From a plasmid: 64,000 nt of DNA. Position 1 is the first letter of the stretch. Every line of letters starts with the position of its first letter. The notes under the pieces are model-generated. The model was not told where the DNA came from and searched no databases. It saw nothing but the letters and a program-made list of their open reading frames with translations. Made by a program: the position numbers and the translations under genes. This document shows positions 41,618 through 58,387 of the stretch, in pieces. The stretch is taken from assembly GCF_054482525.1 (NCBI RefSeq), contig NZ_JBTHVG010000003.1; one strand, written 5' to 3'.

Positions 41618-44008
41618 TTATGTTTGAGGGAATTCTATAGCAAATGTGGCCGTGCCAGATTGACCACTTACAGCGGGAGTAACGGGATACGTGCGCTCTT
41701 CACCATTACCAAGATCCAGTGACAGCGATTTAGTTTCACCAGGCTGGACCGTAACTCCGGCAACCGTAACGCCGAACTGGGCATTTTTCTGAACAGTCAG
41801 GGTTCCGTTTAACTGTCCGGTAATGATAGAACCGTCCTGACGCCGCAACACACTGGTTCGGATGATGGCCAGCGGCGTGTTGTCCGTTGCTTTCAGTGCT
41901 ACGGCTGTGGCCAGCGTCTTGAGATTATCCAGCATAATCAGATTCGCAGGCTGGTAGGTAAAATTAAGCGTTTTAGTGGTCCGGTTACCTGATTCGTCAA
42001 TAGCCAGTGCCTCCAGATGATACATCTGTCCCGATTCGTCAGTGTTGGGGAAGATTCTGGGGTATTCCGGAATAAAGACATCCTTGGATAACGGCGTGAA
42101 TGCCAGGGTGACCTTTTCAGAGTTAGGTCCACCAGCGAGCTGAAGCGATGTCAGGGAAGCATCCCCAGAGGCATCAGTAACGCTTATGCGAAGGTTCTCA
42201 AGCCCTTTAACCAGTTTTCCTTCTGCGTCTGCGCCATTAAAACTGAACGCGATAACCGGAAGCGTTGAGTCAATTTTCAGCGGTGCATTAAGCGTTTTGG
42301 TTCCGGTGTTTCCAACAAGATCCGTGGCAGAGACGCTAACCACCGTATAATCCCCGTCCGGTAGACCAGCGTATGAGAAGGTGGCGTTTTTGGTTTTATA
42401 ATCGCTTTCACTGACGGTCACAGGCTTCAGCGTGAAAGGTTCCCCCCGGGCATTTTTAAGGGTGGCTTCGAAAACTTTGGTATCCCAGTAGCTGATGTTC
42501 CAGGCGTTGACGCGATCATTATCGGTGGCCGTCATAGTGATTGTCTTGGAGGCCTTGTTTACCTGAGCGACATTAACCACCGGTGGGTTGTTATCCCAGA
42601 TAACCGTAAAATTACCAGCAAGCGCATCGAATATGCTGTCACCATCTTTTCCCGAGTAAAGGTGCAGATACTCAAATCCTTTGTCACTGGTGTAGTTGAA
42701 GTTAACCGTCATCTCGCATGAACTTTGTCCGATAGGTATAGTGCAGAACCAGGCTGCATTTTTTACCGTTCTGAACTTTTGCACGTATGGTCGGGGTTCA
42801 GCGGTTACCTTTATGCGGCTAATGGTGGCGGTTTTAACGCTGATTGAGGCCTGAGTTAACCACTCACTGGTATCACTCCGGTACATCTCTTTAGCCACTA
42901 TCTTCGGGGCTATTTCCATCGCCGGGGCTGGAGTGAAGTTGAGGGAGTTATGATGAATTCGTCTTACTCCTCCTGCCAGAGTCTGGAATTCATGATAAGT
43001 ATCCCCCACATTGGGATATATGTATTTGAAAGTATAAATATTATAAGTGCTATCGGACGTCTGGAAATTCGAGTCCGCCCAGCCATATTTGGAACCGTTA
43101 ACAGCAGTAAAGTCACTTTTTTTCCTTAATACCCGTACGGAAATAGGGTTCTGGAAGACGGTCATGCCAGACTGATAAGTGACCCATGATCCGGTAGTGG
43201 CGTCCTGCACCTGGATGATATCGTCAGGCTTAACCCGATCAATTACGCTTCGGCGGCTTAGTTCGATCCTGTTTCCCGCTTTGTCATAAAGGTAGATCCC
43301 CACTTTATATTCAGAGCGGTTTTCCGGTGCCAGGGCATTGCTGCTTGCGTCGGCGACTTGAACGGTTACGCTACCTTCCACTGTATTAATTTCCGCTGGC
43401 TTTTTACGCTCCACTCCAGCGGCATCGGTTATGAAATATTCAGCATTAGCAAGCCCGGAACCTTTATCACTCAGTCCATTAAAGACCAGTGCCTGGACGC
43501 TGGCGTACTGCATACCGGCTGGTACTGAAGTGAAGATCGCTTCGCTGCCAAAGTTCCACCCGTTTCTCGTATAACTTATGGTACCCGTTGCCGGAGGCGT
43601 TCGGTCAATTGCAAGCGGGTAATCCTGCCGGGAGACCTCCTTCCCTTGCAAGTCGGTAATCACCTCTCTGAGGGTGAAGCTATCTTCTCCCATCGCTGGT
43701 ACGGTCAGAGTCTTGCCGTAATAATCAAAGCCTGTCGAAGATGTGGTACGGTCATCTACGGTAACCAGGCTGCTTTTCGTGCTCCAGATGAGGCTCCCGT
43801 CACTTTTCAGCAGACTGAGCGTAATATAACGGTCCAGACCGGAAATAACGGCAACGTCAAAGCTCGTTACCGGATTAATCCATACGGATGCAGGCGATAC
43901 GGTCTTTTTAACGTTCAGGGTATCTTTAAAGCTGAATTCTGCGATTTCAGCGGAAGCTCCTGCGCTGAAACCTGCAAATGCAATAAGCAGGGCTAGTTTG
44001 ATTTTCAT
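41618..44008 (-). CDS. Secreted Ig-like (Big-domain) surface protein, paralog 1 of 3
   Basis: Signal peptide MKIKLALLIAFAGFSAGASA with AGGAG upstream; repeated D-x-(A/S)GN Ig-like motifs; conserved ISGLDRY N-terminal and LDLGNGEERTYPV C-terminal segments shared with the other two. Confidence 0.6.
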   Translation of the reverse strand: MKIKLALLIAFAGFSAGASAEIAEFSFKDTLNVKKTVSPASVWINPVTSFDVAVISGLDRYITLSLLKSDGSLIWSTKSSLVTVDDRTTSSTGFDYYGKTLTVPAMGEDSFTLREVITDLQGKEVSRQDYPLAIDRTPPATGTISYTRNGWNFGSEAIFTSVPAGMQYASVQALVFNGLSDKGSGLANAEYFITDAAGVERKKPAEINTVEGSVTVQVADASSNALAPENRSEYKVGIYLYDKAGNRIELSRRSVIDRVKPDDIIQVQDATTGSWVTYQSGMTVFQNPISVRVLRKKSDFTAVNGSKYGWADSNFQTSDSTYNIYTFKYIYPNVGDTYHEFQTLAGGVRRIHHNSLNFTPAPAMEIAPKIVAKEMYRSDTSEWLTQASISVKTATISRIKVTAEPRPYVQKFRTVKNAAWFCTIPIGQSSCEMTVNFNYTSDKGFEYLHLYSGKDGDSIFDALAGNFTVIWDNNPPVVNVAQVNKASKTITMTATDNDRVNAWNISYWDTKVFEATLKNARGEPFTLKPVTVSESDYKTKNATFSYAGLPDGDYTVVSVSATDLVGNTGTKTLNAPLKIDSTLPVIAFSFNGADAEGKLVKGLENLRISVTDASGDASLTSLQLAGGPNSEKVTLAFTPLSKDVFIPEYPRIFPNTDESGQMYHLEALAIDESGNRTTKTLNFTYQPANLIMLDNLKTLATAVALKATDNTPLAIIRTSVLRRQDGSIITGQLNGTLTVQKNAQFGVTVAGVTVQPGETKSLSLDLGNGEERTYPVTPAVSGQSGTATFAIEFPQT

Positions 44009-44505
44009 GGGTTGTCTCCTGATCAGGTTCCCCATGATACTTTTTCAGTGTTCGAGATCTTTTCGGGAAAATAGCTAATTTTAATGTTTTTCTTTTCTGC
44101 CCGGCGGGACCTGTTTTGTTCCATTTTTATCAGTGAATGTAATGAGACCGATTCGTCCACTGTTAACAGTGTAAAAGCGAGGTTGAAAGCCAGCTTTGAG
44201 AAGGTTTTCAATAGCTGAAAAAAAATCTTTTTTGAGCATTGGTTTCAAGATGGTTTTCCTTTTATGCCCGGTGCCGCCGGGACGGTGGCATTAAATATAC
44301 GCCATGTAAGTAAATTAATTTTTACCCATTTGATTGTCAATACAAACAAAAAATAAACCATGTTTATTATTTTACCAGCGATGCTATTTTAAAGTCCGTC
44401 TAAAATAAAAAACCAAAAAGTTAAATTTGAAGCCATCCTTCCTAAATTCATTTCTTGCGCATATTAGCCCCTGCTTTAAGTATATAATTTTTGAAAAAGT
44501 TGTCT

Positions 44506-47628: not shown

Positions 47629-50049
47629 ATGAAACATCTCGCTTTTATTACTGCTGTAGCCGGACTCGGTATGTCTGTTCAGGCCCCAGCTCAGATATAT
47701 GAATCGGCCTTTAAGGACACGAACGGTATTGAGATCCACGCCCCGTCTTCTCGTCTTATGCTTAATCCGGCATCACCGGTAACTTTGACACTTATTTCAG
47801 GTCTTGATCGTTTCGTTAATGTCAAAGTCACGAAAGACACTGGAACTGTCATTCTTAATACTACGACTACACGGACGGGTGTATCAGACCGACTAACAGC
47901 TGCTGACGGTAGTGAGTTCTACGGCAAAAAAGTAACTTTGCCTGCTTTGGGTGAAGGCAAATTTGTCGTTCAGATAAACGTGTTAGATCTCAATCAGAAG
48001 CCTGTAGCGACCTATAACTATAACTGGCTAATTGATGTCACCCCTCCAGCGGCAAATGCTCTTACCGCTAATACTGGTTCTGGCTCTACCGCTGGTGACG
48101 TGTGGAAGCTTGGATTAGAGGCAACGGGGCAGTATGACTTCACCTCTTCGGGCGTAAGTGATGCAAATGGTATTGATAAGGGCCTAATATATATTTACAG
48201 GCAGGACGGTAGCCTCTACAGCACTACACAGATGCAGTATGACGTATCCGGCCAAAAGATGTACCACACTTACTCTAAGAATTCAGTTAAGGGAACCGGA
48301 ATACCAGACAGCAACCTGGATGAAGACTTTACTGCAAAAGTTGTTATCTTCGATAACGCAGGTAATAGCCGAACGCTGCCAACTCAAAAATTTCGCTACG
48401 ACAACACGCTGGGTGAGATGACACTGTGGGCCGTTCATGATCCAAATACGTCTTCCAGCGTCGTACCCGGGGTTTCTAATTATCCGGCTTACAAAGCCGG
48501 TATGGTCGTTAACGAAAACCCTATTCGATTAGTCTACCGGATCCCAAAATCTAACTACCGTGCTTATTCAGAAGGTGGGCTTCAGTTCATCAATCAATAT
48601 TCCGCCCCCAAAGAGATAGCTGTAGACAGCACTTATGCTTATGTTGAAATGACTCTTCCCTATGGCTCAATTAATGGGGATATGGCTCGTATGGCGAACT
48701 TTGGCCAGTGGGGAGGGTATTATCCGTCATACAGCCTCGTTCTAAACCCATCTGCAAACCAAACGCCTGCATTTGCGGGTACCTGGGTAGATTTCCTCGA
48801 TGATAAGGGGAACTGGGTTAAGTGGAAGGATTTTGAGAGTGTGGCTTCATCACGACTGCCAATTAAAATTTCCCGACTTCGTTTTAACGTTGAAGCCCGG
48901 CCCTTTGCACAGGAGATCGGCGGTAAGGCGACCTGCACCATTCCGGCAGGAAAAACCTCGTGTGAAGCGCCTGAGACGTTTGATATGGCCTTGGGTACCC
49001 AGGGCTACAATAGAATCCTTTACTTCGTTCGCAGCATCAGCAATCCCATTTTGCGGTCTGAGCAATGGATTATGACACGCTGGAACAATAAACAACTGCC
49101 GGTAATAAACTCGATATCATATGACGAGACTAACAAGCAGCTGGATGTACTGGCGTCACTTGAAGGCGATGGTAACTGGTTCGACTCGGTCTCATTGAGG
49201 GAATTTTATCTTTCCGATAAGAACACCGGTACCCGGATGTCACCAACAGGCGTAATCAAATCTCGTATCTCAGGTAACTACACGATTGCTTATGATTTAT
49301 CCCGTCAGTCTGAAGGAAAATACAACGTTGAGGTCAACATCAGGGACTTCTTCCAGAACCAGACCAATAAAACTTTCGGAGAAATTGCTCTGGATAACAC
49401 TCCTCCGACAGTGGCCATAACATTCGACGGAAAGCCGGTAAAAGACGATACGGTAGTGTACGGCCTGGAGAACCTCAGGATCGCTCTGGCAGATAATCTG
49501 ACAACCCCGAGGATAACCCGTCTTCAGCTCGTAGGTGGCCCCACAGCTGATAACGTTGAGCTTACGTGGTCACCGGCAGGCAAAGATACATACATGCCTG
49601 AGTATCCGAGGCTGTTCCCAAATTTCGAACCATCTGAAAATTATTCAATTAGCGTAACAGTTGCCGATAGTCAGTCGAATACCAAAACCTATACTCAGAA
49701 GTTCAGTTATCTACCGAATAACCTTGTGCAGTTACATAATCTACGCACATTGTCGGTCAGTTCACCTCTCAAAACGACAGATGGCGTACCACTTGCGTAC
49801 CTGTCCACTAACGTTCTGCGTAAGACAAATGGAGAAATTGCTAAAGGGGTCCAGAACGCAACGCTGACTGTGCGGAAGGATGCAGCCTTCGGTATTAAAT
49901 TTAATGGGGCACAGGCGGCTCCAGGCGAGTCAGTTGAGGTGCAAATAGATATGGGCCAGGGGGATAATCTTCTGTTACCCGTTTATCCTTCCGAAAATGG
50001 GAAAGTTGGCACCTCAGAATTCATGATTCAGATCGACGAGTTGAAGTAA
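47629..50049 (+). CDS. Secreted Ig-like (Big-domain) surface protein, paralog 2 of 3
   Basis: Signal peptide; ISGLDRF; D-x-AGN repeats; C-terminal IDMGQGDNLLLPVYP. Confidence 0.6.
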   Translation: MKHLAFITAVAGLGMSVQAPAQIYESAFKDTNGIEIHAPSSRLMLNPASPVTLTLISGLDRFVNVKVTKDTGTVILNTTTTRTGVSDRLTAADGSEFYGKKVTLPALGEGKFVVQINVLDLNQKPVATYNYNWLIDVTPPAANALTANTGSGSTAGDVWKLGLEATGQYDFTSSGVSDANGIDKGLIYIYRQDGSLYSTTQMQYDVSGQKMYHTYSKNSVKGTGIPDSNLDEDFTAKVVIFDNAGNSRTLPTQKFRYDNTLGEMTLWAVHDPNTSSSVVPGVSNYPAYKAGMVVNENPIRLVYRIPKSNYRAYSEGGLQFINQYSAPKEIAVDSTYAYVEMTLPYGSINGDMARMANFGQWGGYYPSYSLVLNPSANQTPAFAGTWVDFLDDKGNWVKWKDFESVASSRLPIKISRLRFNVEARPFAQEIGGKATCTIPAGKTSCEAPETFDMALGTQGYNRILYFVRSISNPILRSEQWIMTRWNNKQLPVINSISYDETNKQLDVLASLEGDGNWFDSVSLREFYLSDKNTGTRMSPTGVIKSRISGNYTIAYDLSRQSEGKYNVEVNIRDFFQNQTNKTFGEIALDNTPPTVAITFDGKPVKDDTVVYGLENLRIALADNLTTPRITRLQLVGGPTADNVELTWSPAGKDTYMPEYPRLFPNFEPSENYSISVTVADSQSNTKTYTQKFSYLPNNLVQLHNLRTLSVSSPLKTTDGVPLAYLSTNVLRKTNGEIAKGVQNATLTVRKDAAFGIKFNGAQAAPGESVEVQIDMGQGDNLLLPVYPSENGKVGTSEFMIQIDELK
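47928..47938. promoter_or_regulatory. Palindrome copy inside the CDS of Ig-like paralog 2
   Basis: AAAAAAGTAACTTTG. Confidence 0.35.
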
Positions 50050-50152
50050 CTACCCGGAGCCGACAGTAAAACTGACGGCTTCAATTTTACTGCCCTCCTC
50101 GACTCCGATCAGCCAGTACGTCTTCAGAGATTCGCAAGGAAGAACCGAAAGA

Positions 50153-50163
50153 AAAGTTACTTT
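50153..50163. promoter_or_regulatory. Palindrome copy 3' of Ig-like paralog 2
   Basis: AAAAGTTACTTTA. Confidence 0.45.
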
Positions 50164-50290
50164 AATCGTACGTTTCCAGCGATGCTTTCAAAAGACAATG
50201 CATACTCGTTGATTACGACAATGGGAGTGAGTGTCGAACCCCTTGAGTAAGGATACCTGGTAAATATACAGCCCCGGGGATTCTCTTCCT

Positions 50291-50700
50291 TCAACCGGGG
50301 ATGACAACGGGAGTGAGTCCGGCAACTCACACCTGTTGTCACTTCTCTGACATATCGTCATACGAGCTTACTCAAGCGCATCCACAAAGATGGGATCGTT
50401 TTGAATCTAAACTGGTACTGGTTAGCCAGTCACTTGCATCTACTCCCCCGTCGATATTTAAGTGACAATTGTAGTGATCTGCAATACTGGTGTCTCAGAA
50501 ACACTGACGACGGTAGAGACTCAATACCCTAACCCCTGACAACAGAAGTGAGCTTAGAGGTGTTACGCTGCTGTCACCTAATGCTTGGGAATTGCCTGAC
50601 TCACAACCATTGTCATCCGGAGCTACTGATTAACGTTGAACCGCTGGACTTTAATGACAGTGGTAGTGATGGATAGGCTCATTTCCATTGTCGTCATTTT
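50291..50700. repeat. Three or four further iteron-like inverted pairs on the far side of the IS91-family element
   Basis: gacaacgggagtgag...ctcacacctgttgtc and similar copies at about 50291, 50526, 50581 and 50650. Confidence 0.5.
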
Positions 50701-50759
50701 ATCGGAGAACCACGGCAGCCTGGCGGCTGCAAATTGAAAACCGCCCCGGTTCGTCCTGT

Positions 50760-52410
50760 TGTTGCCGCACGCCCCGCAGAATATGTATGCTCTGAGGACC
50801 TGTTTTATTAAGGACTCATCCCCTTATGTTGACCCGCAAAAGTATCGATACAGTTCTGCTCTCTGTTGGTGCTGAGAAGCTCTCACAACGAGAATGGGAC
50901 TGGATGAAAATGCTCAAACCCATGGACCCACCACCTGCGATGGTGACGACCTCCATCCTGAAGCGCCGTGGCGATACAGCAGCCCTTACCCTGCTACAGG
51001 ATACCGGGGTTTAATCCATCCTCATGTTGTCCGGTTTTACTCCCCGCCCTCTGAAACGTCTGTTCACAGCCAACCAGTGCTGGACGTCCTTCCTGGATGC
51101 GGGCGGTCTGCGCGATATCGAGGTTGAAGCCGTCACCAAAATGCTGGCCTGCGGCACACGGATACTGGGTGTAAAAGAGTTCGGGTGTGATAACCCGGAC
51201 TGTCAGCACGTAAAGTACCTGACCAACTCATGCGGCAGCCGTGCCTGCCCGTCCTGCGGAAAGAAGGCCACAGACCTGTGGACAGCAACACAGCTGAATC
51301 GTCTTCCTGACTGCGACTGGGTACATCTGGTCTTCACCCTGCCGGACACGCTGTGGCCGGTGTTCGAAAGCAACCGCTGGCTGCTGAATGACGTGTGCCG
51401 TCTGGCGGTGGAGAATCTGCTGTATGCCGCCCGAAAACGGGGGCTGGAACCCGGTATCTTCTGCGCCATCCACACGTATGGCCGTCGTCTCAACTGGCAT
51501 CCGCATGTACATGTGTCTGTAACCTGTGGAGGTCTGAATAAGCATGGTCAGTGGAAAAAGCTGAGCTTCCTGAAAGACGCGATGCGTTCACGGTGGATGT
51601 GGAATATGCGGCAGCTGCTTCTGAAAGCGTGGTCAGAGGGGATGGCAATGCCGGAGTCGTTGTCACATATCACGACGGAATCACAGTGGAGAAGCCTGGT
51701 GCTGAAATCCGGCGGAAAATACTGGCATGTGTACATGTCGAAGAAGACAGCCGGAGGGCGGAATACGGCACGCTACCTGGGTCGTTATCTGAAGAAGCCA
51801 CCAATAGCGGCTTCCCGACTGGCTCATTACAACGGAGGGGCAAGCCTGAGCTTCCGTTACCTGGACCACAAAACGGGAGAAACGGCGACGGAAACGCTGA
51901 CACAGCGTGAGCTGGTCGCGAGGCTGAAACAGCACATCCCGGAGAAGTTTTTTAAGATGGTGAGGTACTTCGGGTTCCTTGCCAACCGTGTGTGTGGAGA
52001 GAAGCTGCCGCAGGTGTACCGTGCACTGGGGATGGATAAACCGGAACCAGTGGCGAAAGTGTGCTATGCACAAATGGTGAAACAGTTCCTGAGTCGTGAC
52101 CCGTTCGAATGCGTGCTGTGTGGCTGCCGGATGGTATACCGCCGGGCCATTGCGGGGCTGAATGTATCAGGGCTGAAGAAAAACGCGCGGGATATCAGTC
52201 TACTGAGGTATATGCCGGCCTGACACAGGCTAAGTGTGCCCGGGAATCGGTGAAAGTATAAAAAACAGCCTGTTACGGTATAAAAATCGACCATACAGAG
52301 AGGGAAACCACCGGAGTGGTGGGAAAAGCAGAAAGGCTCACGTGGCATAAGGCGTGGACAATGGTATCGACTGGTTTTTCAATTTCCTATACGTCAAGCC
52401 TCTTCGTCCT
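50760..52410 (+). mobile_element. IS91-family (rolling-circle) insertion element; boundaries approximate
   Basis: IS91-like transposase gene plus a putative oriIS-like end (tttttcaatttcctatacgtcaagcc, about 52373-52400); the element sits between two blocks of iteron-like repeats. Confidence 0.4.
51024..52223 (+). CDS. IS91-family transposase (HUH Y2 type)
   Basis: N-terminal Zn-binding Cys cluster CGSRACPSCGKK and HUH motif WHPHVHVSV; an in-frame TAA separates it from the upstream ORF 50826-51014, which may belong to the same gene or to an orf121-like gene. Confidence 0.7.
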   Translation: MLSGFTPRPLKRLFTANQCWTSFLDAGGLRDIEVEAVTKMLACGTRILGVKEFGCDNPDCQHVKYLTNSCGSRACPSCGKKATDLWTATQLNRLPDCDWVHLVFTLPDTLWPVFESNRWLLNDVCRLAVENLLYAARKRGLEPGIFCAIHTYGRRLNWHPHVHVSVTCGGLNKHGQWKKLSFLKDAMRSRWMWNMRQLLLKAWSEGMAMPESLSHITTESQWRSLVLKSGGKYWHVYMSKKTAGGRNTARYLGRYLKKPPIAASRLAHYNGGASLSFRYLDHKTGETATETLTQRELVARLKQHIPEKFFKMVRYFGFLANRVCGEKLPQVYRALGMDKPEPVAKVCYAQMVKQFLSRDPFECVLCGCRMVYRRAIAGLNVSGLKKNARDISLLRYMPA

Positions 52411-52422
52411 ACAGGTTTAAGC

Positions 52423-53660
52423 TGACAATGGTAGTGATTGGATGATCTCACTACTGTTGTCACTCAGTTCTTTGAGCGGACCCTTCCCTCGGTTGGTCGG
52501 CATTAACAACGGTAGTGACTCGATTGGCTCACTGCCATTGTCATCGTGTAAATGACGTACCTTATCAGCTCAGCTGAAAGCAATGACAACGGTAGTGACT
52601 CTAATTGCTCACTGCCATTGTCGTCGTGTCTATTGAGAGCCTTATCAGTGCACCTGAAAAGCAATGACAACGGTAGTGATTCTAATGGCTCACTACCGTT
52701 GTCACCGTGTGTATTGAGAGGATGGTCCACTTAACTGGACGTATATGACAATGGTAGTGACTTTAATAGCTCACTACCATTGTCGGTGTGTGAATTGAGA
52801 GGATGAGCAGCTCAGCTGTACGTCCATGACAATGGTAATGACTTAATGAGCTCACTACCGTTGTCACCCTGTTAATTAAGAGGCTCATCTGCTCTTCTGG
52901 AAGGCTATGACAACGGAAGTGACTTGCTGGGCTCACTGCCATTGTCGCCGTATGAATTGAGAGGATCATCCGCTCTTCTGGATGGCAATGACAACGGTAA
53001 TGACTTAATAGGCTCACTACCATTGTCACCCTGTGAATTGAGAGGATGATCTGCTTAACCAGACGGCCATGACAACGGTAGTGACTTTCTGGGCTCAATA
53101 CCGTTGTCACCCTGTGAGTTAAGAGGTTGACCCGCTCTACTGGACGGCCATGACAACGGTAGTCACTTTCTGGGCTCACTACCGTTGTCGCCATATAGAA
53201 TGAGAGGAGCATCAGCTCAACTGAACGGCAATGACTACAGTAATGAGCTGGATGAAGCATAACCATTGACATCTGGCCCAACCGGAAGCCGTATTCGCCA
53301 ATCCAATCGAGATTCACAATGGCCGTGACTCGCCGCATTAAGTTCCGGTGTCCTCCCAAAGCTGAACGCACACTCGGAGGACAATGACAATGCCAGTAAG
53401 GTACACATCATTACCATTGTCACTATAGCTACCAGAGAAGCCGGGATTTGAATGTCGATGGTAGTGAGTGGGTCAACTCACTGCCATTGTCACCCCGTTA
53501 CGATATTTTCCGTTGGATGTACTGGCCAATGAAGTAAAGCGTAGAAACCGGGTGTTAACAGGTGACTCAGGAGAAAGCGTTGAATTTCGCAATCTCGATC
53601 TACATAGGGTGGTAGAGAACAATGACAACGGTAATGACTTTTGACTCATTACCGTTGACG
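52423..53660. repeat. Tandem array of about 15 units (~80 bp each), each containing an inverted pair of iteron-like 15-mers
   Basis: tgacaacggtagtgac...ctcactaccgttgtca repeated at roughly 80-bp spacing; lies 3' of repA, comparable to incA-type copy-control iteron arrays. Confidence 0.7.
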
Positions 53661-53734
53661 TGAAAGAGCGGGCTGGGACTAACGAAAATCGAAGAAGTAA
53701 TTTAGCACCCGGAGCCTAAACCGCCGGGTTAACT

Positions 53735-54823
53735 TTAGCTGGCGTTGCTGTTCTTTTTCTGGCTTCGAAGACTACGAATATAGCGCAGTTCTTCAGCGGT
53801 TAAATCATGGACGGTAAGAACATCATCGCCGTCAATCGGGTCAGCTGGTGGGCATAACTCACCTTCTAAAACAGAAGACCCTGAGTTCTCTTCTTCATCT
53901 TCAACCACTTCTAAAGGAGGCTGAGTATTGTTCAAATTCAGATCGGGATCCCGCTTATGAATCTGGAAGTATACTTTTCCGTCTTTCTTAATTTCGGTGT
54001 ACTTGAGGTATCCTATCGATGCCAACTCTTCAAGAGCCTTTCTCACGGTAGCATTCTGACTATTTGCTCGTGTTTTGAGGTTCAGACGATTTTTCAGCCG
54101 AGTAAGGGATATCGGTATAGGATTTGGCGGTAATGACTCTATGAACGTATAGAGAGCCTGGGCGCTTTCCTTCTTGGCCAACTCCTTAATTGCCTTCAGC
54201 TGCATCAAAACCTTATGATCGTATTGATAGAGCTCGAAAATCTTAGGATCAACCTGAAGGACAACCTGATCTGATTCCGGGTCTAACAGGGCAGACTGTA
54301 CCAGATGCGTTGTATAGACTTTGGACGAGTTATTACTGGTGAACGACAAGGTAACGGATGCTAACCTGCGTAAGGAGGCGTCTATACGTTTTCTGGACGC
54401 TGTAGATGAGCGATAATTTTCAGGCGTACATAGCTTGAGGAATTCAGTGAATTTTAAGCTTATCGTGTCATTGTTAATCGGATGATTGGCATAGGTTCGA
54501 ATGATGCCCATCCACGTCTTAAAATCTACTGACATATTAAGACGCTCACCGACAATTGAAATATTGGTGAACCCCTCGCTCTCCATTAAAGAGAGCGTCT
54601 GTAACTCTTTCGTTGCGTCAAAGCCAACCGTTTTATATTCCCGATTTTGACGCCCCACACTCTTTGGTGATGGGACGAACAGCCCGAGCCGCATCAAAGC
54701 AATAGACTGCACCGTACGGTTGCTGTTAGGACGCAAAATGATGTCTTTACCTGATTCTTTCTCTCTAACAGAGAAAGCCCTGGTGACCAGGTCCTGCTGC
54801 TCAGTATCTTTCTCTTTAGTCAT
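53735..54823 (-). CDS. repA: Replication initiator RepA (RepFIB/P1 RepA family, iteron-binding)
   Basis: LMRLGLFVP, DFKTWMGII, LVQSALLDPESDQVVLQVDPKIFELYQYDHKVLMQLKAI and ESAQALYTFIESLP match the RepFIB RepA pattern; iterons on both sides. Confidence 0.8.
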   Translation of the reverse strand: MTKEKDTEQQDLVTRAFSVREKESGKDIILRPNSNRTVQSIALMRLGLFVPSPKSVGRQNREYKTVGFDATKELQTLSLMESEGFTNISIVGERLNMSVDFKTWMGIIRTYANHPINNDTISLKFTEFLKLCTPENYRSSTASRKRIDASLRRLASVTLSFTSNNSSKVYTTHLVQSALLDPESDQVVLQVDPKIFELYQYDHKVLMQLKAIKELAKKESAQALYTFIESLPPNPIPISLTRLKNRLNLKTRANSQNATVRKALEELASIGYLKYTEIKKDGKVYFQIHKRDPDLNLNNTQPPLEVVEDEEENSGSSVLEGELCPPADPIDGDDVLTVHDLTAEELRYIRSLRSQKKNSNAS

Positions 54824-54892
54824 AATAAGTTATCACTGAATGTGTAAACAGATTGGTGAATAGTAAGCCCCAGCGAACTCTATGTCACTGGA

Positions 54893-55575
54893 TGGATCAT
54901 TGTGATGATCCATATCTGTGCATAAGTTCTACCTAAAAAAACGACTCCACTCATTAAAACTTGGCAAAAACTCTTTGCATACAATGACCTGCAACTCTTA
55001 TCAACAACGGATCAGATCAAGTTAAAAAGATCTAATGAAAAGTCACTACTATTGTCGCTCTGATCACTACTGATGTCAAAAAACTCATTACCAACGTTAT
55101 AATAATCACTACTAATGTCAAAATAATCACTACTGTTGTCACTGATCACGTCTCAGGCCTTGTGCCGTCTGGCCTGGAGGCAGCGGGGATCTCTTTTGAT
55201 CTATCAGGAACACTAAGGTACTAATTATTGGAACTACCTTGTGGAAAATGGGGATAAATAAATGCTTAGTTCTTATACAGGTCTCAACTTGCCTCCCTGA
55301 TAAAAACTGTCGTCAAAGCTAAATCGCAGCCACAGGCATTTTCGGTGGATAAATTTTTGAGAAATAGAAGCATACATGCAGACTCGTGTCGCAAGTAATT
55401 GAAAGTAATGATTTATTTAAATAATGCGAGTCACCTTACCTCACAGTGGAAGTTTAAGTCTAACCTCACTACCATTGTCACTTAAAATCATTACCAACGT
55501 CGAAATAGTCTCTACCATTGTCTTTTAAGTCACTCCCGTTGTCACTTATGTCGCTACTGTTGTCAGTGACAATGC
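54893..55575 (-). promoter_or_regulatory. Putative replication origin and repA control region
   Basis: GATC cluster (54893-55040); five direct ~21-bp iterons TCACTACnnTTGTC (55043-55145); DnaA-box-like GGTGGATAA (55345-55353) within an AT-rich stretch; five more iterons (55466-55575). Confidence 0.55.
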
Positions 55576-55930
55576 TCCAGCCCAGTAACCATGCGGCCTA
55601 CAGCGTACCGGGATCTTCTTTGTACTCTCTGGCACCTTTGGGATCATTTATTGGATCTACATGAGGGATAAAATCTTTTGACGATTTCGTAGTGCAGTTA
55701 TACCAGCGACTTAGCAAGACAAAAGCTGCAATTTAGTGACGAGTTACTAGTCTGCCCAACAAGAGCAATGCAGAGAAGATATGTGGTGAAATGACCATGG
55801 TAGTGAGTCTAATCACTACCATGGTCCGCAGTAAGCGTTACTTACGCAATGAACGTCGGACTGATTTGCAACAACATGGGCTACGGCGCATCAGAAGGCG
55901 GCCGTTGTGCTTCAGCAAAACAGCCCTGCT

Positions 55931-58387
55931 TTATTTTAATTCTTCAATGTTAATCATGAACTCAGATCTGCCAGTAAGGCCGGATACAGCAGGGAAAATA
56001 GGAAAGCTACGGCTGTCCCCGAGCCCCAAATCCAGTTGAAGCTCTTTGCTTTCACCTGGCATCGCAGAAACGCCATTTACAGTCACGCCGAATGCAGCGT
56101 CCTTACGGACAGTAAGCACTGCGTCCTGAAGCCCTGTAGCGATTGAACCATCCTTTTTACGCAGCTGGCTGGCATACAGAACAGCCAGAGCAGTATTGTC
56201 AGATGTTTTGAGAGAAGCATTGACAGCTAAGGTTTTCAGATTCTCTAGCCTGACGAGATTGTTTGGAAGGTAGTTAAATTCGACTGAGCTTTCTTTAACG
56301 TTGTTCATCTCATCTTTGGCCTGAACTGTGAGAGTGTATGTTTCGCCTTCATTAAGAGACGGAAAGATCTTGGGATAATTAGGTGCATACAGGTTGTTTC
56401 CCAGATTCACCCAAGACAATTCCACCGCATCAGAAACAGGGCCACCGCGAAGAGTCATACGGCTTAAGGATGGTTTAGTTAGAGCATCGGTGAGCTGTAT
56501 ACGGACGTTCTCCAGCCCATATACTGTTACGTTTTTGCTGATCGGTTTTCCTTCGTAGCTAATACTTACAGATGGTGCTGTATTATCAACGACAACTGTT
56601 TGATAAGGGAGGTTACCGGTATTGTTGAATGTATCTTGGGCATTAATCACCACGTTATAACTGCCTTCTGGTACCTCTTTCATGTTGAACTCATACGTGT
56701 AGTTCCCAGACGCCATATTTCTACCTGTTTGTTTGCCGGTTACGCTTATTTCTGCGTTGTTACGGTTTTTATCTGACAACCAAACTCGATTTACATAAAC
56801 ATGGTCGAAATATGAACCATCTCCAGGTTGATTCACGTAAACCTGGAGAATGTTGGTGGTTTCATTGTAATCAAATCCAGTGACGGAGGGACCCAGTGTA
56901 TGCCAGGCTATATTCTCCCATATAGGGGCAAAGAAGGTTGCTTCGGTGGTTGACCTTACTTCATAGCCACTATGAAGATAACCGGTAGTGCCATTTATAA
57001 TATCCTGGGGCAAAGAGACGGTACAGGTTGTTGAGCCAGCTGGAATACTGCATGTTGCTCCGCCAGTGATTTTTTGATCATATGGCCTGGCCTGTACATT
57101 GAATCGGATATTAGTAAGTTTTATAGGCATATCAGATGCCTTGAACAGGTTCCAGTTTACGCTGTTGAACCATGTTCCATCAGCCTTTTGTCGTTCTATG
57201 GGTGAACTTCCCCAAGCCGGACTCTTTACAGAGGCAGGATCCCAGTTGAGCCAGCTGGCATACTGACCAAGATCTCCTCCAGACCATTGATATGTATTCA
57301 CAGGTCTATAGTAGTTTCCATCTAAGGCACCCTGTGGCAGCTTAACTTCCACGTAGACATAGGTGGCATCTTCGGAAAGGACCTGTACTCCGCCATAGTT
57401 ATTGGTAATGCTCATGCCACCATTTCGATATGGCTTCCAGTTAGTTCTTGGGATACGTATAACCAACTTGTAGGGGTTTTCCAGCACTGTAAGGCCTCGT
57501 TTAAACGGGACGTATCCCGAAGAAATGCCGGGTACAACACTGGTGCTTACACGTGAGTCATGAACTGCAAATGGCGTAAATTCTCCCATTTGATCGTCAT
57601 ATAAAAACCGCTGGGGAGGAATGTTAAGCGTATTTCCTGCCAGGTCCGTAACGATGAAATTGAAGGTGAATTCTTCATCAAGATCACTTGAGGGCATGCC
57701 AGCCTGGGTGTTCATATCTTTAATCCACGGATAGACCGCACGTTTATTGGCTGTGTCATAACTCAGGTTATTGTCGGAGACCACAGAACCATTACTTCGT
57801 TTAATGACAAGACGGATCTTGTCAATTCCACTAGCATCCTCAATACCGTCTGCAAATATAGAAAACTGGCCACTACCGCCTCGGCCCAACTCCCAAAGTG
57901 GCCCAGAAAGTACCATGTCGTAACCTGCGTTTTGACTCGGATAAATACTCTTATAGCGTGGAGGAGTTGTATCAACGATGAAATGATAAGTAGATGTGCT
58001 CACTACAGTCTGGCGAATATCCAGAGTTTCATTGACTACAGTAAAGGTCCCTTCTCCGAGCGCCGGTAGAACCATATCCTTTCCATAGTATTCTGTTCCA
58101 TCGGCAGCAACGATACGATCTGCAACGCTCGTTTTGGTCGAGACGGAGGAATACATAACCTTTTTATCGCTGTCTCGTGTGACCGTCACTCGCTCGTACC
58201 GATCAAGACCCGATATCAAGTTCAGAGTCAAAACACCAGCGGGATTAAGATATGTTTGTGTTGCAGGTTTGATATTCCGAACAGCCTTATTGGTATCTGT
58301 AAATGAGTAGCTAAATACCTGAGCATGTGCCGAAGATACAGTAGCAAGGGCAGTTGCAACCATGCAGCCAATTAGAGTTTTACGCAT
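55931..58387 (-). CDS. Secreted Ig-like (Big-domain) surface protein, paralog 3 of 3
   Basis: Signal peptide; ISGLDRY; D-x-AGN repeats; C-terminal LDLGLGDSRSFPIFP; GGAG upstream of ATG. Confidence 0.6.
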   Translation of the reverse strand: MRKTLIGCMVATALATVSSAHAQVFSYSFTDTNKAVRNIKPATQTYLNPAGVLTLNLISGLDRYERVTVTRDSDKKVMYSSVSTKTSVADRIVAADGTEYYGKDMVLPALGEGTFTVVNETLDIRQTVVSTSTYHFIVDTTPPRYKSIYPSQNAGYDMVLSGPLWELGRGGSGQFSIFADGIEDASGIDKIRLVIKRSNGSVVSDNNLSYDTANKRAVYPWIKDMNTQAGMPSSDLDEEFTFNFIVTDLAGNTLNIPPQRFLYDDQMGEFTPFAVHDSRVSTSVVPGISSGYVPFKRGLTVLENPYKLVIRIPRTNWKPYRNGGMSITNNYGGVQVLSEDATYVYVEVKLPQGALDGNYYRPVNTYQWSGGDLGQYASWLNWDPASVKSPAWGSSPIERQKADGTWFNSVNWNLFKASDMPIKLTNIRFNVQARPYDQKITGGATCSIPAGSTTCTVSLPQDIINGTTGYLHSGYEVRSTTEATFFAPIWENIAWHTLGPSVTGFDYNETTNILQVYVNQPGDGSYFDHVYVNRVWLSDKNRNNAEISVTGKQTGRNMASGNYTYEFNMKEVPEGSYNVVINAQDTFNNTGNLPYQTVVVDNTAPSVSISYEGKPISKNVTVYGLENVRIQLTDALTKPSLSRMTLRGGPVSDAVELSWVNLGNNLYAPNYPKIFPSLNEGETYTLTVQAKDEMNNVKESSVEFNYLPNNLVRLENLKTLAVNASLKTSDNTALAVLYASQLRKKDGSIATGLQDAVLTVRKDAAFGVTVNGVSAMPGESKELQLDLGLGDSRSFPIFPAVSGLTGRSEFMINIEELK

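What the first reader, a model, noticed from the sequence alone, without database searches (positions are those of the whole stretch)
50291..53660. IS91-family element inserted inside the iteron array
Iteron-like inverted pairs occur on both sides of the IS91-family element (50291-50700 and 52423-53660), and an oriIS-like sequence lies at about 52373-52400. This indicates a rolling-circle insertion into the copy-control array, which could alter copy number and also mobilise adjacent DNA by one-ended transposition. An in-frame TAA separates a 62-codon ORF from the transposase ORF, so the transposase may be a pseudogene or have a separate upstream ORF.
Basis: partly seen in the sequence, partly recalled or inferred. 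Interest (0 to 1): 0.45.

Follow-up and report, generated by a model that had tools for sequence, protein, structure and literature searches.

The report
IS1294 inserted beside IncHI2 iterons
A well-known jumping gene (IS1294) has landed cleanly in the frayed outer edge of the repeat array next to the replication gene of an IncHI2 resistance plasmid; this is an ordinary event, and its only mildly new aspect is that the small reading frame in front of the transposase is a conserved gene.

Summary
Window 50707-52394 is a 1688-bp insertion, delimited to the base by an uninterrupted IncHI2 plasmid. It has no target duplication and is 100% identical to the element called IS1294. Its left end (GAAC...) is terIS. 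Its right end (...TTTCCTATACGT) is oriIS and abuts a CAAG target.

The host locus is the RepHI2 replicon. RepHI2 is a homologue of phage P1 RepA. 21-bp iterons and DnaA-like boxes lie upstream of repHI2, and an 81-bp-period array of inverted half-site pairs lies downstream, in the position of P1 incA.

The IS sits in a spacer between the outermost, degenerate in-phase pair and the rest of the array. It breaks no half-site.

The transposase is complete. The in-frame 62-codon ORF is a separate gene under purifying selection, not a broken N-terminus.

One-ended transposition would carry DNA to the left of the element, not the array or repHI2. An effect on copy number is untested and probably small:
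- The array varies in length among IncHI2 plasmids.
- Other IS elements, including IS1294 copies much closer to repHI2, occur in related plasmids.
- IncHI2 backbones carry a second replicon.

Known element, known plasmid, new but unremarkable insertion site.

The parts
50707..52394 (+). IS1294, complete 1688-bp copy (tnpA on the + strand; terIS at the left, oriIS at the right)
   Evidence: The empty site in L001 defines both ends. It is 100% identical over 1688 bp to hundreds of plasmid copies. These include pST3553, whose depositors call the gene 'IS1294 transposase', and the single copy in pHNAH9, called IS1294 in PMC6052338.
50707..50731 (+). terIS end: terminal GAAC (GTTC on the transposed strand) followed by the subterminal palindrome GCAGCC-TGGC-GGCTGC (50716-50731)
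   Evidence: Sequence. The hairpin appears in the fold of both strands, although the overall z-score is not significant. The literature states that terIS of IS1294 ends in GTTC next to a subterminal palindrome (PMC13181058, PMC5043248).
50826..51014 (+). orf62, a conserved small gene 9 nt upstream of tnpA and in frame with it
   Evidence: 131 homologues, mostly exactly 62 aa, down to about 62% identity. pN/pS is 0.18-0.27 across five DNA copies, against 1.6-2.0 in the other two frames. AF2 model: four helices, pLDDT 83.6. No Pfam, NCBIfam, PHROG or PDB match.
51024..52223 (+). tnpA, IS91-family HUH/Y2 transposase, 399 aa, intact
   Evidence: NCBIfam NF033538: 309.6 bits (cut-off 125), profile positions 7-355 of 356. 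Pfam Zn_Tnp_IS91 2-90/90 and Y2_Tnp 1-180/183.
52373..52394 (+). oriIS end, GGTTTTTCAATTTCCTATACGT
   Evidence: It is the last bases of the insertion. The same end is conserved in ISSbo1, the Morganella relative and the sister element L005.
52395..52398 (+). Target tetranucleotide CAAG (CTTG on the other strand), part of the plasmid and not of the IS
   Evidence: It is present in the empty site, TATCGGA|CAAGCC. Other copies of the same IS abut GAAC or CAAG. The published IS1294 targets are GTTC/CTTG (PMC6052338).
50216..50693 (.). Distal, degenerate block of RepHI2 half-sites (9 hits), ending with the inverted pair 50655-50693, which is in 80-bp phase with the array
52423..53280 (.). 81-bp-period array of inverted half-site pairs: 9 core units at 77-89% to the consensus, plus two decaying edge units
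   Evidence: the repeat finder D1-D9. TRF on the empty site gives 81 bp x 9.3 copies. Unit identities.
53385..53660 (.). Three further inverted half-site pairs between the array and the 3' end of repHI2
53735..54823 (-). repHI2, replication initiator of the P1 RepA family
   Evidence: RefSeq annotation of the identical gene. 41% identity to P1 RepA, E 4e-61. phrog_775, E 6e-110.
55043..55565 (-). Presumptive oriV: two sets of five 21-bp direct iterons (55043-55141 and 55466-55565) flanking an AT-rich stretch and DnaA-box-like sequences (55240-55257, 55344)
   Evidence: (period 21). Its function is inferred by analogy with P1 oriR.

Best explanation
Window 50707-52394 is a complete and presumably active copy of the known rolling-circle insertion sequence IS1294 (IS91 family). 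It made a simple insertion into an IncHI2 plasmid.

The site is a CAAG tetranucleotide in the spacer between two inverted RepHI2 half-site pairs, at the degenerate rep-distal edge of the 81-bp repeat array downstream of repHI2.

Shown:
- the exact ends, the absence of a target duplication, and the target tetranucleotide;
- identity to IS1294, and an intact transposase;
- that orf62 is a separate gene under purifying selection;
- that RepHI2 is a P1 RepA homologue;
- that the replicon has the P1 order: iterons with DnaA-like boxes, then rep, then a downstream repeat array.

Inferred:
- The downstream array acts like P1 incA, binding initiator and pairing with the origin to hold copy number down.
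- The insertion is close to neutral. It breaks no half-site. It leaves all core units next to repHI2. It only moves one degenerate pair and about seven scattered half-sites 1.7 kb further away.
- If termination at terIS fails, the element would carry DNA on its left. The next GAAC on the + strand is at 50638, then 50236 and 50142, then the Ig-like gene.
- orf62 is probably translated together with tnpA by coupling.
For: Ends, lack of duplication, contiguous flanks.

Identity and name.

Target rule: eight further copies of this IS or its close relatives checked here abut GAAC or CAAG at the oriIS end. A more distant Morganella relative abuts CGAG.

Intact TnpA.

orf62 under selection.

Repeats and phase.

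P1-like replicon.

Tolerance of the region:
- The 100%-identical empty site is common.
- The array is one unit longer or five units shorter in other IncHI2 plasmids (H212-H218).
- IS2, IS1203 and ISKpn18 occur in the same region.
- IS1294 sits at 50638, 50142 and 53617, and inside the presumptive oriV at 55272, in other plasmids.
- A second initiator gene lies about 15 kb away in IncHI2 backbones.
- Evolved pJXP9 clones survived a deletion of about 165 kb that included repHI2 (PMC9599605).
Against: - No measurement of copy number, incompatibility or transposition exists for this plasmid.
- The role of the 81-bp array in R478 rests on Page et al. 2001, which I could not read. One review places the long iterons next to the rep start codon, whereas here they lie beyond the stop codon.
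- The second replicon lies outside the window, so its presence in this plasmid is assumed from relatives.
- This exact junction is absent from PLSDB, complete RefSeq E. coli genomes and one genome per species of GTDB. There is therefore no evidence that plasmids carrying it spread.
- tnpA points into the array, and no terminator-like site follows it on the + strand. Read-through transcription, convergent with repHI2, cannot be excluded.
Confidence: 0.88

Rival explanations
1. The insertion matters for replication control. By splitting the initiator-binding array, or by sending tnpA transcription into it against repHI2, it changes plasmid copy number or incompatibility.
For: - The IS does lie between initiator half-site pairs of an array in the incA position of a P1-type replicon.
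- tnpA faces the array and no terminator-like site intervenes.
Against: - No half-site is broken: 13 bp and 28 bp of spacer remain on either side.
- All nine core units stay next to repHI2.
- Natural IncHI2 plasmids differ by one to five whole units and carry other IS elements here, or even within the presumptive origin.
- A second replicon exists in the backbone.
- From my own knowledge, P1 incA acts independently of its position, even in trans.
Confidence: 0.12
2. The element is a decaying copy. The TAA between the 62-codon ORF and the 399-codon ORF is a nonsense mutation that truncates a longer transposase.
For: The two ORFs are in the same frame, separated by one stop and three sense codons.
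Against: - The 399-aa ORF spans the whole IS91 transposase model, starting at residue 17.
- The same stop-plus-9-nt arrangement is present in ISSbo1 and in a Morganella relative with 75% nucleotide identity.
- In a more distant relative the two ORFs are in different frames.
- Identical copies sit at many different sites in hundreds of plasmids.
Confidence: 0.02
3. The structure arose by one-ended transposition or by recombination between IS copies that brought foreign DNA or rearranged the replicon, or it is an assembly artefact.
For: IS1294 does mobilise adjacent DNA. In other IncHI2 plasmids it is associated with rearrangements (L008 and L009).
Against: - Here both flanks are contiguous to the base in the empty site.
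- The inserted DNA is exactly one IS.
- There is no other copy or fragment of the IS in the window.
- The junction obeys the target rule, which a random chimera would not.
Confidence: 0.03

Closest known systems
IS1294 (IS91 family; Tavakoli et al. 2000)
   Same: - 100% identical over 1688 bp to copies named IS1294 by depositors and authors.
- HUH/Y2 transposase with an N-terminal zinc domain.
- terIS ends in GTTC.
- oriIS lies next to a CTTG/GTTC target.
- No target duplication.
   Different: Nothing in the element itself differs. Only the insertion site is unrecorded in the collections searched. I had no ISfinder reference sequence, so the name rests on annotation and papers.
ISSbo1 and an unnamed sister element (L005, p13KWH46-1)
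   Same: ISSbo1 is 94.5% identical, has the same length and carries the same orf62. The sister element shares the first 28 bp of terIS, a tnpA at 94.5% identity, and oriIS.
   Different: The sister element has an unrelated left-hand module with a Cys-rich 90-codon ORF that overlaps the tnpA start.
IS91 with orf121-tnpA (PMC13181058)
   Same: Both have a small ORF placed directly in front of tnpA, between terIS and the transposase gene, and positioned for coupled translation.
   Different: - Orf62 shows no sequence similarity to Orf121 (hhalign probability 0.1%).
- It is half the length.
- It is separated from tnpA by 9 nt rather than overlapping it.
- Its function is untested.
Phage P1 plasmid replicon (oriR - repA - incA)
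   Same: - RepHI2 is 41% identical to P1 RepA.
- Direct iterons plus DnaA-like boxes lie upstream of rep.
- An initiator-binding repeat array lies downstream of rep.
   Different: - The downstream sites are inverted pairs of 15-bp half-sites with an 81-bp period, not 19-bp iterons.
- There are two upstream sets of five 21-bp iterons.
- Control function has not been shown here.
R478 RepHI2A replicon (Page et al. 2001; Gilmour et al. 2004)
   Same: It has the same initiator and the same 80-81-bp long iterons. Twelve are reported for R478, which fits the 12 in-phase pairs counted here once the IS is removed.
   Different: This plasmid has IS1294 between in-phase pairs 1 and 2, counted from the rep-distal end.

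Membership tests
IS91 family / IS1294 | HUH/Y2 transposase with an N-terminal zinc-binding domain | tested here: met
   NF033538, 309.6 bits against a cut-off of 125. Pfam Zn_Tnp_IS91 and Y2_Tnp, both full length.
IS91 family / IS1294 | No target-site duplication on insertion | tested here: met
   Comparison with the empty site: L001 2207|2208 are contiguous, with no repeated bases.
IS91 family / IS1294 | oriIS end adjacent to a GTTC or CTTG target; terIS ends in GTTC | tested here: met
   CAAG at 52395-52398. The element starts with GAAC. Eight further copies of this IS or its close relatives abut GAAC or CAAG.
IS91 family / IS1294 | Nucleotide identity to the named element | tested here: met
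   100% over 1688 bp to pST3553 (annotated 'IS1294 transposase') and to the sole copy in pHNAH9, described as IS1294. No ISfinder reference was available.
IS91 family / IS1294 | Rolling-circle transposition with one-ended events | not testable with these tools
   This needs a mating-out or sacB-capture assay. Many identical copies at distinct sites argue for activity.
P1-type iteron replicon with a downstream control array | Initiator homologous to P1 RepA | tested here: met
   41% identity over residues 30-297, E 4e-61. phrog_775, E 6e-110. Pfam and NCBIfam gave no hit.
P1-type iteron replicon with a downstream control array | Direct iterons with DnaA boxes and an AT-rich stretch upstream of rep | tested here: met
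   Two sets of five 21-bp repeats. DnaA-like boxes at 55240-55257 and 55344, each with one mismatch. Box counts in the window as a whole are not above chance.
P1-type iteron replicon with a downstream control array | The downstream repeats bind the initiator and lower copy number | not testable with these tools
   They share the half-site sequence with the upstream iterons. Their function is inferred from position.
IS91 Orf121-type accessory gene | Small ORF immediately upstream of tnpA, conserved with it | tested here: met
   orf62 ends 9 nt before tnpA. It is conserved, with pN/pS 0.18-0.27.
IS91 Orf121-type accessory gene | Sequence homology to Orf121 | tested here: not met
   hhalign probability 0.1%, E 0.6.
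IS91 Orf121-type accessory gene | Regulates transposition and termination at terIS | not testable with these tools
   This needs genetics.

The most novel reading that the evidence does not exclude
IS1294 and its relatives encode a second protein, Orf62. It is a four-helix protein of 62 residues with no detectable relatives, and it is kept under purifying selection directly in front of tnpA.

It may be translationally coupled to the transposase gene. It may tune transposition or termination at terIS, and hence how often adjacent resistance genes are carried along, as the unrelated Orf121 does in IS91. A 2026 paper states that IS91 is unique in its family in having such an ORF.

A sister element carries yet another unrelated ORF at the same position. 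The slot between terIS and tnpA would then be a general, exchangeable regulatory module in this family.
Probability: 0.35. Interest if true: 0.4.

Novelty: already known. Interest (0 to 1): 0.13.

Why it matters
There is little here for plasmid biology. It is one more IS1294 copy in a multiresistance IncHI2 backbone, in a region that comparative data show to be tolerant of change.

It does place a one-ended-transposition engine next to the replicon, but it points away from repHI2.

The useful by-products are:
1. A base-exact map of the RepHI2 repeat system and its P1-like logic.
2. Evidence that IS1294 repeatedly hits GAAC/CAAG sites around repHI2, including the presumptive origin, in other plasmids.
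3. Evidence that orf62 is a real gene. This bears on how IS1294-mediated mobilisation of genes such as blaCMY-2 is controlled.

Tried and rejected
- Comparing orf62 only with ISSbo1 (12 differences, 5 synonymous and 6 non-synonymous codons) first suggested no selection. This was overturned by more distant copies.
- Junction searches in PLSDB and complete RefSeq E. coli genomes found no record with this exact insertion.
- An exact scan of one genome per species for the left junction found nothing. The source plasmid remains unidentified.
- Pfam, NCBIfam and PDB sequence searches gave nothing for RepHI2. Only PHROGs and tblastn against phages linked it to P1 RepA.
- Folding of the IS ends gave non-significant z-scores. 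The terIS hairpin is visible but is not statistical evidence.
- Orf62 shows no relation to IS91 Orf121 or to the 90-aa ORF of the sister element.
- Foldseek of the Orf62 model against the PDB gave no match with E below 2.
- Page et al. 2001 and Tagg et al. 2014 are not held in the library. Further literature searches gave no functional detail on the 81-bp array.
- DnaA-box counts over the whole window are at chance level. Only their clustering between the two iteron sets is suggestive.
Full report
**What is in the sequence**

The region belongs to an IncHI2 (R478-type) plasmid. A megablast of window 50000-54900 against PLSDB finds repHI2 and its flanking Ig-like genes in many Escherichia, Salmonella, Enterobacter and Klebsiella plasmids. 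Most of the IncHI2 records listed match in two pieces that skip about 1.7 kb.

Alignment to one such uninterrupted plasmid, pWW012, gives:
- window 48500-50706 = L001 1-2207;
- window 52395-56400 = L001 2208-6213.

The extra DNA is therefore exactly 50707-52394 (1688 bp). No base is duplicated or lost at the target, and the junction bases do not allow the boundaries to be shifted.

**Identity of the insertion**

The 1688 bp are 100% identical, end to end, to copies in hundreds of plasmids. 719 E. coli RefSeq records and 1392 PLSDB records hold at least 80% of it. Two of these copies carry the name IS1294:
- pST3553 (AP014566.1), where the depositors call the gene 'IS1294 transposase'.
- The only copy in pHNAH9 (MG197493), a plasmid whose IS1294 is described in PMC6052338.

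ISSbo1 is 94.5% identical.

The 399-aa ORF (51024-52223) scores 309.6 bits on the NCBIfam IS91 transposase model (cut-off 125), covering profile positions 7-355 of 356. It contains a full Zn_Tnp_IS91 domain and a full Y2_Tnp domain.

The element begins with GAAC followed by the palindrome GCAGCC-TGGC-GGCTGC. It ends with GGTTTTTCAATTTCCTATACGT. According to PMC13181058, PMC5043248 and PMC6052338:
- terIS of IS1294 ends in GTTC next to a subterminal palindrome;
- oriIS lies next to a GTTC or CTTG target;
- no target duplication is made.

Read on the minus strand, the window shows exactly this: CTTG | oriIS ... terIS-GTTC.

Eight further copies of this IS or its close relatives examined here (in L002, L003, L004, L005, L007, L008, L009 and L017) abut GAAC or CAAG at the oriIS end. 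A more distant Morganella relative abuts CGAG.

**The repeats**

The half-site TGACAAYGGTAGTGA, allowing three mismatches, occurs 52 times in the window against 2.8 expected by chance:

| Location | Hits |
|---|---|
| 50216-50693 (left of the IS) | 9 |
| Inside the IS (three mismatches, present in every IS1294 copy, so chance) | 1 |
| 52423-53660 (right of the IS) | 28 |
| 55043-55827 (upstream of repHI2) | 10 |
| Elsewhere | 4 |

To the right of the IS the half-sites form inverted pairs, 15 + 10 + 15 bp, repeated every 80-81 bp. TRF on the uninterrupted plasmid reports 81 bp x 9.3 copies, equal to window 52499-53246.

I scored every in-phase 81-bp unit against the consensus of the core units:

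| Unit (window start) | Identity to consensus |
|---|---|
| 52504 to 53151 (nine units) | 77-89% |
| 52423 (edge) | 60% |
| 53232 (edge) | 52% |
| 50654 (next unit leftwards) | 44% |
| Random 81-mers from the window | mean 32%, maximum 47% |

The similarity of the 50654 unit is carried by its half-site pair.

With the IS removed, pair 50655/50679 lies 80 bp from pair 52423/52448. It is therefore the twelfth in-phase pair, which fits the 'twelve 80-81 bp iterons' reported for R478 (PMC8490738).

The IS sits in the spacer, 13 bp after the left pair and 28 bp before the right pair. The site is the frayed, rep-distal edge and not the core.

**What the array is likely to do**

RepHI2 (53735-54823, minus strand) has no Pfam, NCBIfam or PDB sequence match. 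It does match phrog_775 at E 6e-110, and it is 41% identical to phage P1 RepA (E 4e-61).

Upstream of repHI2 lie two sets of five 21-bp direct repeats of the same half-site, at 55043-55141 and 55466-55565. They bracket an AT-rich stretch, GATC sites and one-mismatch DnaA boxes at 55240-55257 and 55344.

The order is thus the same as in P1: origin iterons, then rep, then a downstream array. In P1 the downstream incA iterons hold copy number down by binding RepA and pairing with the origin. That statement is my own knowledge and was not tested here.

The label 'copy-control array' is therefore a reasonable inference from homology and position, but it has not been demonstrated. I could not read Page et al. 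2001. One paper places the long iterons next to the rep start codon, whereas here they follow the stop codon.

**Consequences of the insertion**

No half-site is interrupted. All core units remain contiguous with repHI2. Only one degenerate in-phase pair and about seven scattered half-sites are moved 1.7 kb away.

Comparative data show that this region tolerates more than that:
- Hundreds of plasmids have the 100%-identical empty site, but others have arrays one unit longer or five units shorter (H212-H218).
- IS2, IS1203 and ISKpn18 occur in the same intergenic region.
- IS1294 itself is found at GAAC 50638 (pE105-4 and CP090540), at GAAC 50142 and GAAC 53617 (p602A1-220K-mcr3), and in the Ig-like gene at 49222.
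- In two plasmids IS1294 sits at 55272, between the two iteron sets of the presumptive origin.
- IncHI2 backbones carry a second initiator gene about 15 kb away. That position lies outside this window.
- Evolved derivatives of the IncHI2 plasmid pJXP9 survived a deletion of about 165 kb that included repHI2 (PMC9599605).

I therefore rate a marked effect on copy number as unlikely (about 0.12), though it is untested. One open point remains. tnpA reads towards the array, and no terminator-like site follows it on the + strand.

**One-ended transposition**

Published IS1294 transposition units run from oriIS through the element to terIS. When terIS is missed, they run on to the next GTTC. The blaCMY-2 unit is an example: IS1294-ΔISEcp1-blaCMY-2 ... 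GTTC.

In this window that direction is leftwards. The DNA at risk is the degenerate half-site block and the Ig-like gene 47629-50049. Surrogate ends, GAAC on the + strand, are available at 50638, 50236 and 50142. The core array and repHI2 lie on the oriIS side and would not be carried.

**The 62-codon ORF**

orf62 (50826-51014) ends in TAA, and tnpA starts 9 nt later in the same frame. The pseudogene reading is excluded:
- The family models begin at about residue 16 of the 399-aa ORF.
- The arrangement is identical in all active-looking copies.

orf62 is a gene in its own right:
- A protein search finds 131 homologues, most of them exactly 62 residues long. They reach down to about 62% identity and occur in Erwinia, Morganella, Serratia, Enterobacter, Klebsiella and Citrobacter. 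They share the invariant core KLSQREW and a conserved PMDPPP motif.
- Across five DNA copies, pairwise pN/pS is 0.18-0.27, similar to tnpA (0.175).
- Differences between IS1294 and the Morganella copy fall 11, 12 and 35 on codon positions 1 to 3.
- The other two frames give ratios of 1.6-2.0 and contain stops.
- The Morganella element keeps the 9-nt linker and the frame, with a TGA stop and a GTG start. A metagenomic relative has a 1-nt gap and a different frame. This favours coupled translation over read-through.
- An AlphaFold model is confident (pLDDT 83.6) and shows four helices, with no match in the PDB.

Orf62 is unrelated in sequence to IS91 Orf121, taken from L016, and to a Cys-rich 90-aa ORF that occupies the same slot in a sister element. 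PMC13181058 describes IS91 as unique in its family in having an upstream ORF. orf62 qualifies that statement, at least architecturally. Whether it regulates transposition is unknown.

**Novelty and verdict**

The element, the plasmid family and the mode of insertion are all known. This particular junction is absent from PLSDB, from complete RefSeq E. coli genomes and from one genome per species of GTDB. It is therefore a new site, but an unremarkable one.

- The insertion and its location are right.
- The mobilisation target and the pseudogene option are wrong.
- The copy-number effect is unsupported.

Interest is low. The only lead worth following is orf62.

Noticed in passing
window 50826-51014 (and L004, L010, L012, L014, L015): orf62 in front of the IS1294 transposase gene is conserved in length and sequence across Enterobacterales and is under purifying selection (pN/pS about 0.2). 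A 2026 paper says only IS91 has an upstream ORF in this family. Orf62 is unrelated in sequence to IS91 Orf121.
   Followed up: yes
L005 621-893 (p13KWH46-1, NZ_CP019251.1): A sister element shares the first 28 bp of terIS, a tnpA at 94.5% identity, and oriIS with IS1294. Its left-hand module is unrelated and encodes a Cys-rich 90-aa ORF that overlaps the tnpA start by 20 nt. The slot between terIS and tnpA looks exchangeable.
   Followed up: partly
L007 and L009 (p602A1-220K-mcr3, p22C057LT1); window-equivalent sites 50142, 53617 and 55272: Other IncHI2 plasmids carry up to three IS1294 copies around repHI2. One lies 118 bp from the rep stop codon. One lies between the two 21-bp iteron sets of the presumptive origin. 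MOB-suite no longer types p602A1-220K-mcr3 as IncHI2A.
   Followed up: partly
window 47721-53617 equivalents in L002, L003, L007 and L009: All six IS1294 insertions seen on the 3' (array) side of repHI2 have the same orientation, with tnpA pointing towards repHI2. The copy at 55272 on the other side is reversed. With 9 versus 6 usable tetranucleotides in the intergenic region this is only suggestive. It could reflect strand-specific targeting relative to the replication fork.
   Followed up: no
window 52423-53280; H212-H218: The 81-bp array varies in length among IncHI2 plasmids: spans of +81, +80 and -405 bp relative to this window, that is one unit more or five fewer.
   Followed up: partly
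window 52763-53371 (-), and 52503-52734 on both strands: A 202-aa ORF and several ORFs of 60-75 aa run through the repeat array. They are artefacts of the periodic repeat (period 81 = 27 codons), not genes. RefSeq annotates nothing there.
   Followed up: partly
window 41618-44035 (-), 47629-50049 (+), 55931-58387 (-): Three paralogous Ig-like-domain proteins of about 800 aa (41% and 29% identity, no DNA-level similarity) surround the RepHI2 replicon. Two of them converge on it from either side. Their function is unknown.
   Followed up: partly
window 52356-52370: The oriIS-proximal part of IS1294 contains GGACAATGGTATCGA, a three-mismatch match to the RepHI2 half-site. It is present in all IS1294 copies, so it is a coincidence. 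It may have contributed to the impression of continuity across the junction.
   Followed up: yes
window 54824-55930: The presumptive RepHI2 origin consists of two sets of five 21-bp direct iterons, an AT-rich stretch, two GATC sites and tandem one-mismatch DnaA boxes. One review places the long 81-bp iterons of R478 next to the rep start codon, but here they follow the stop codon.
   Followed up: partly
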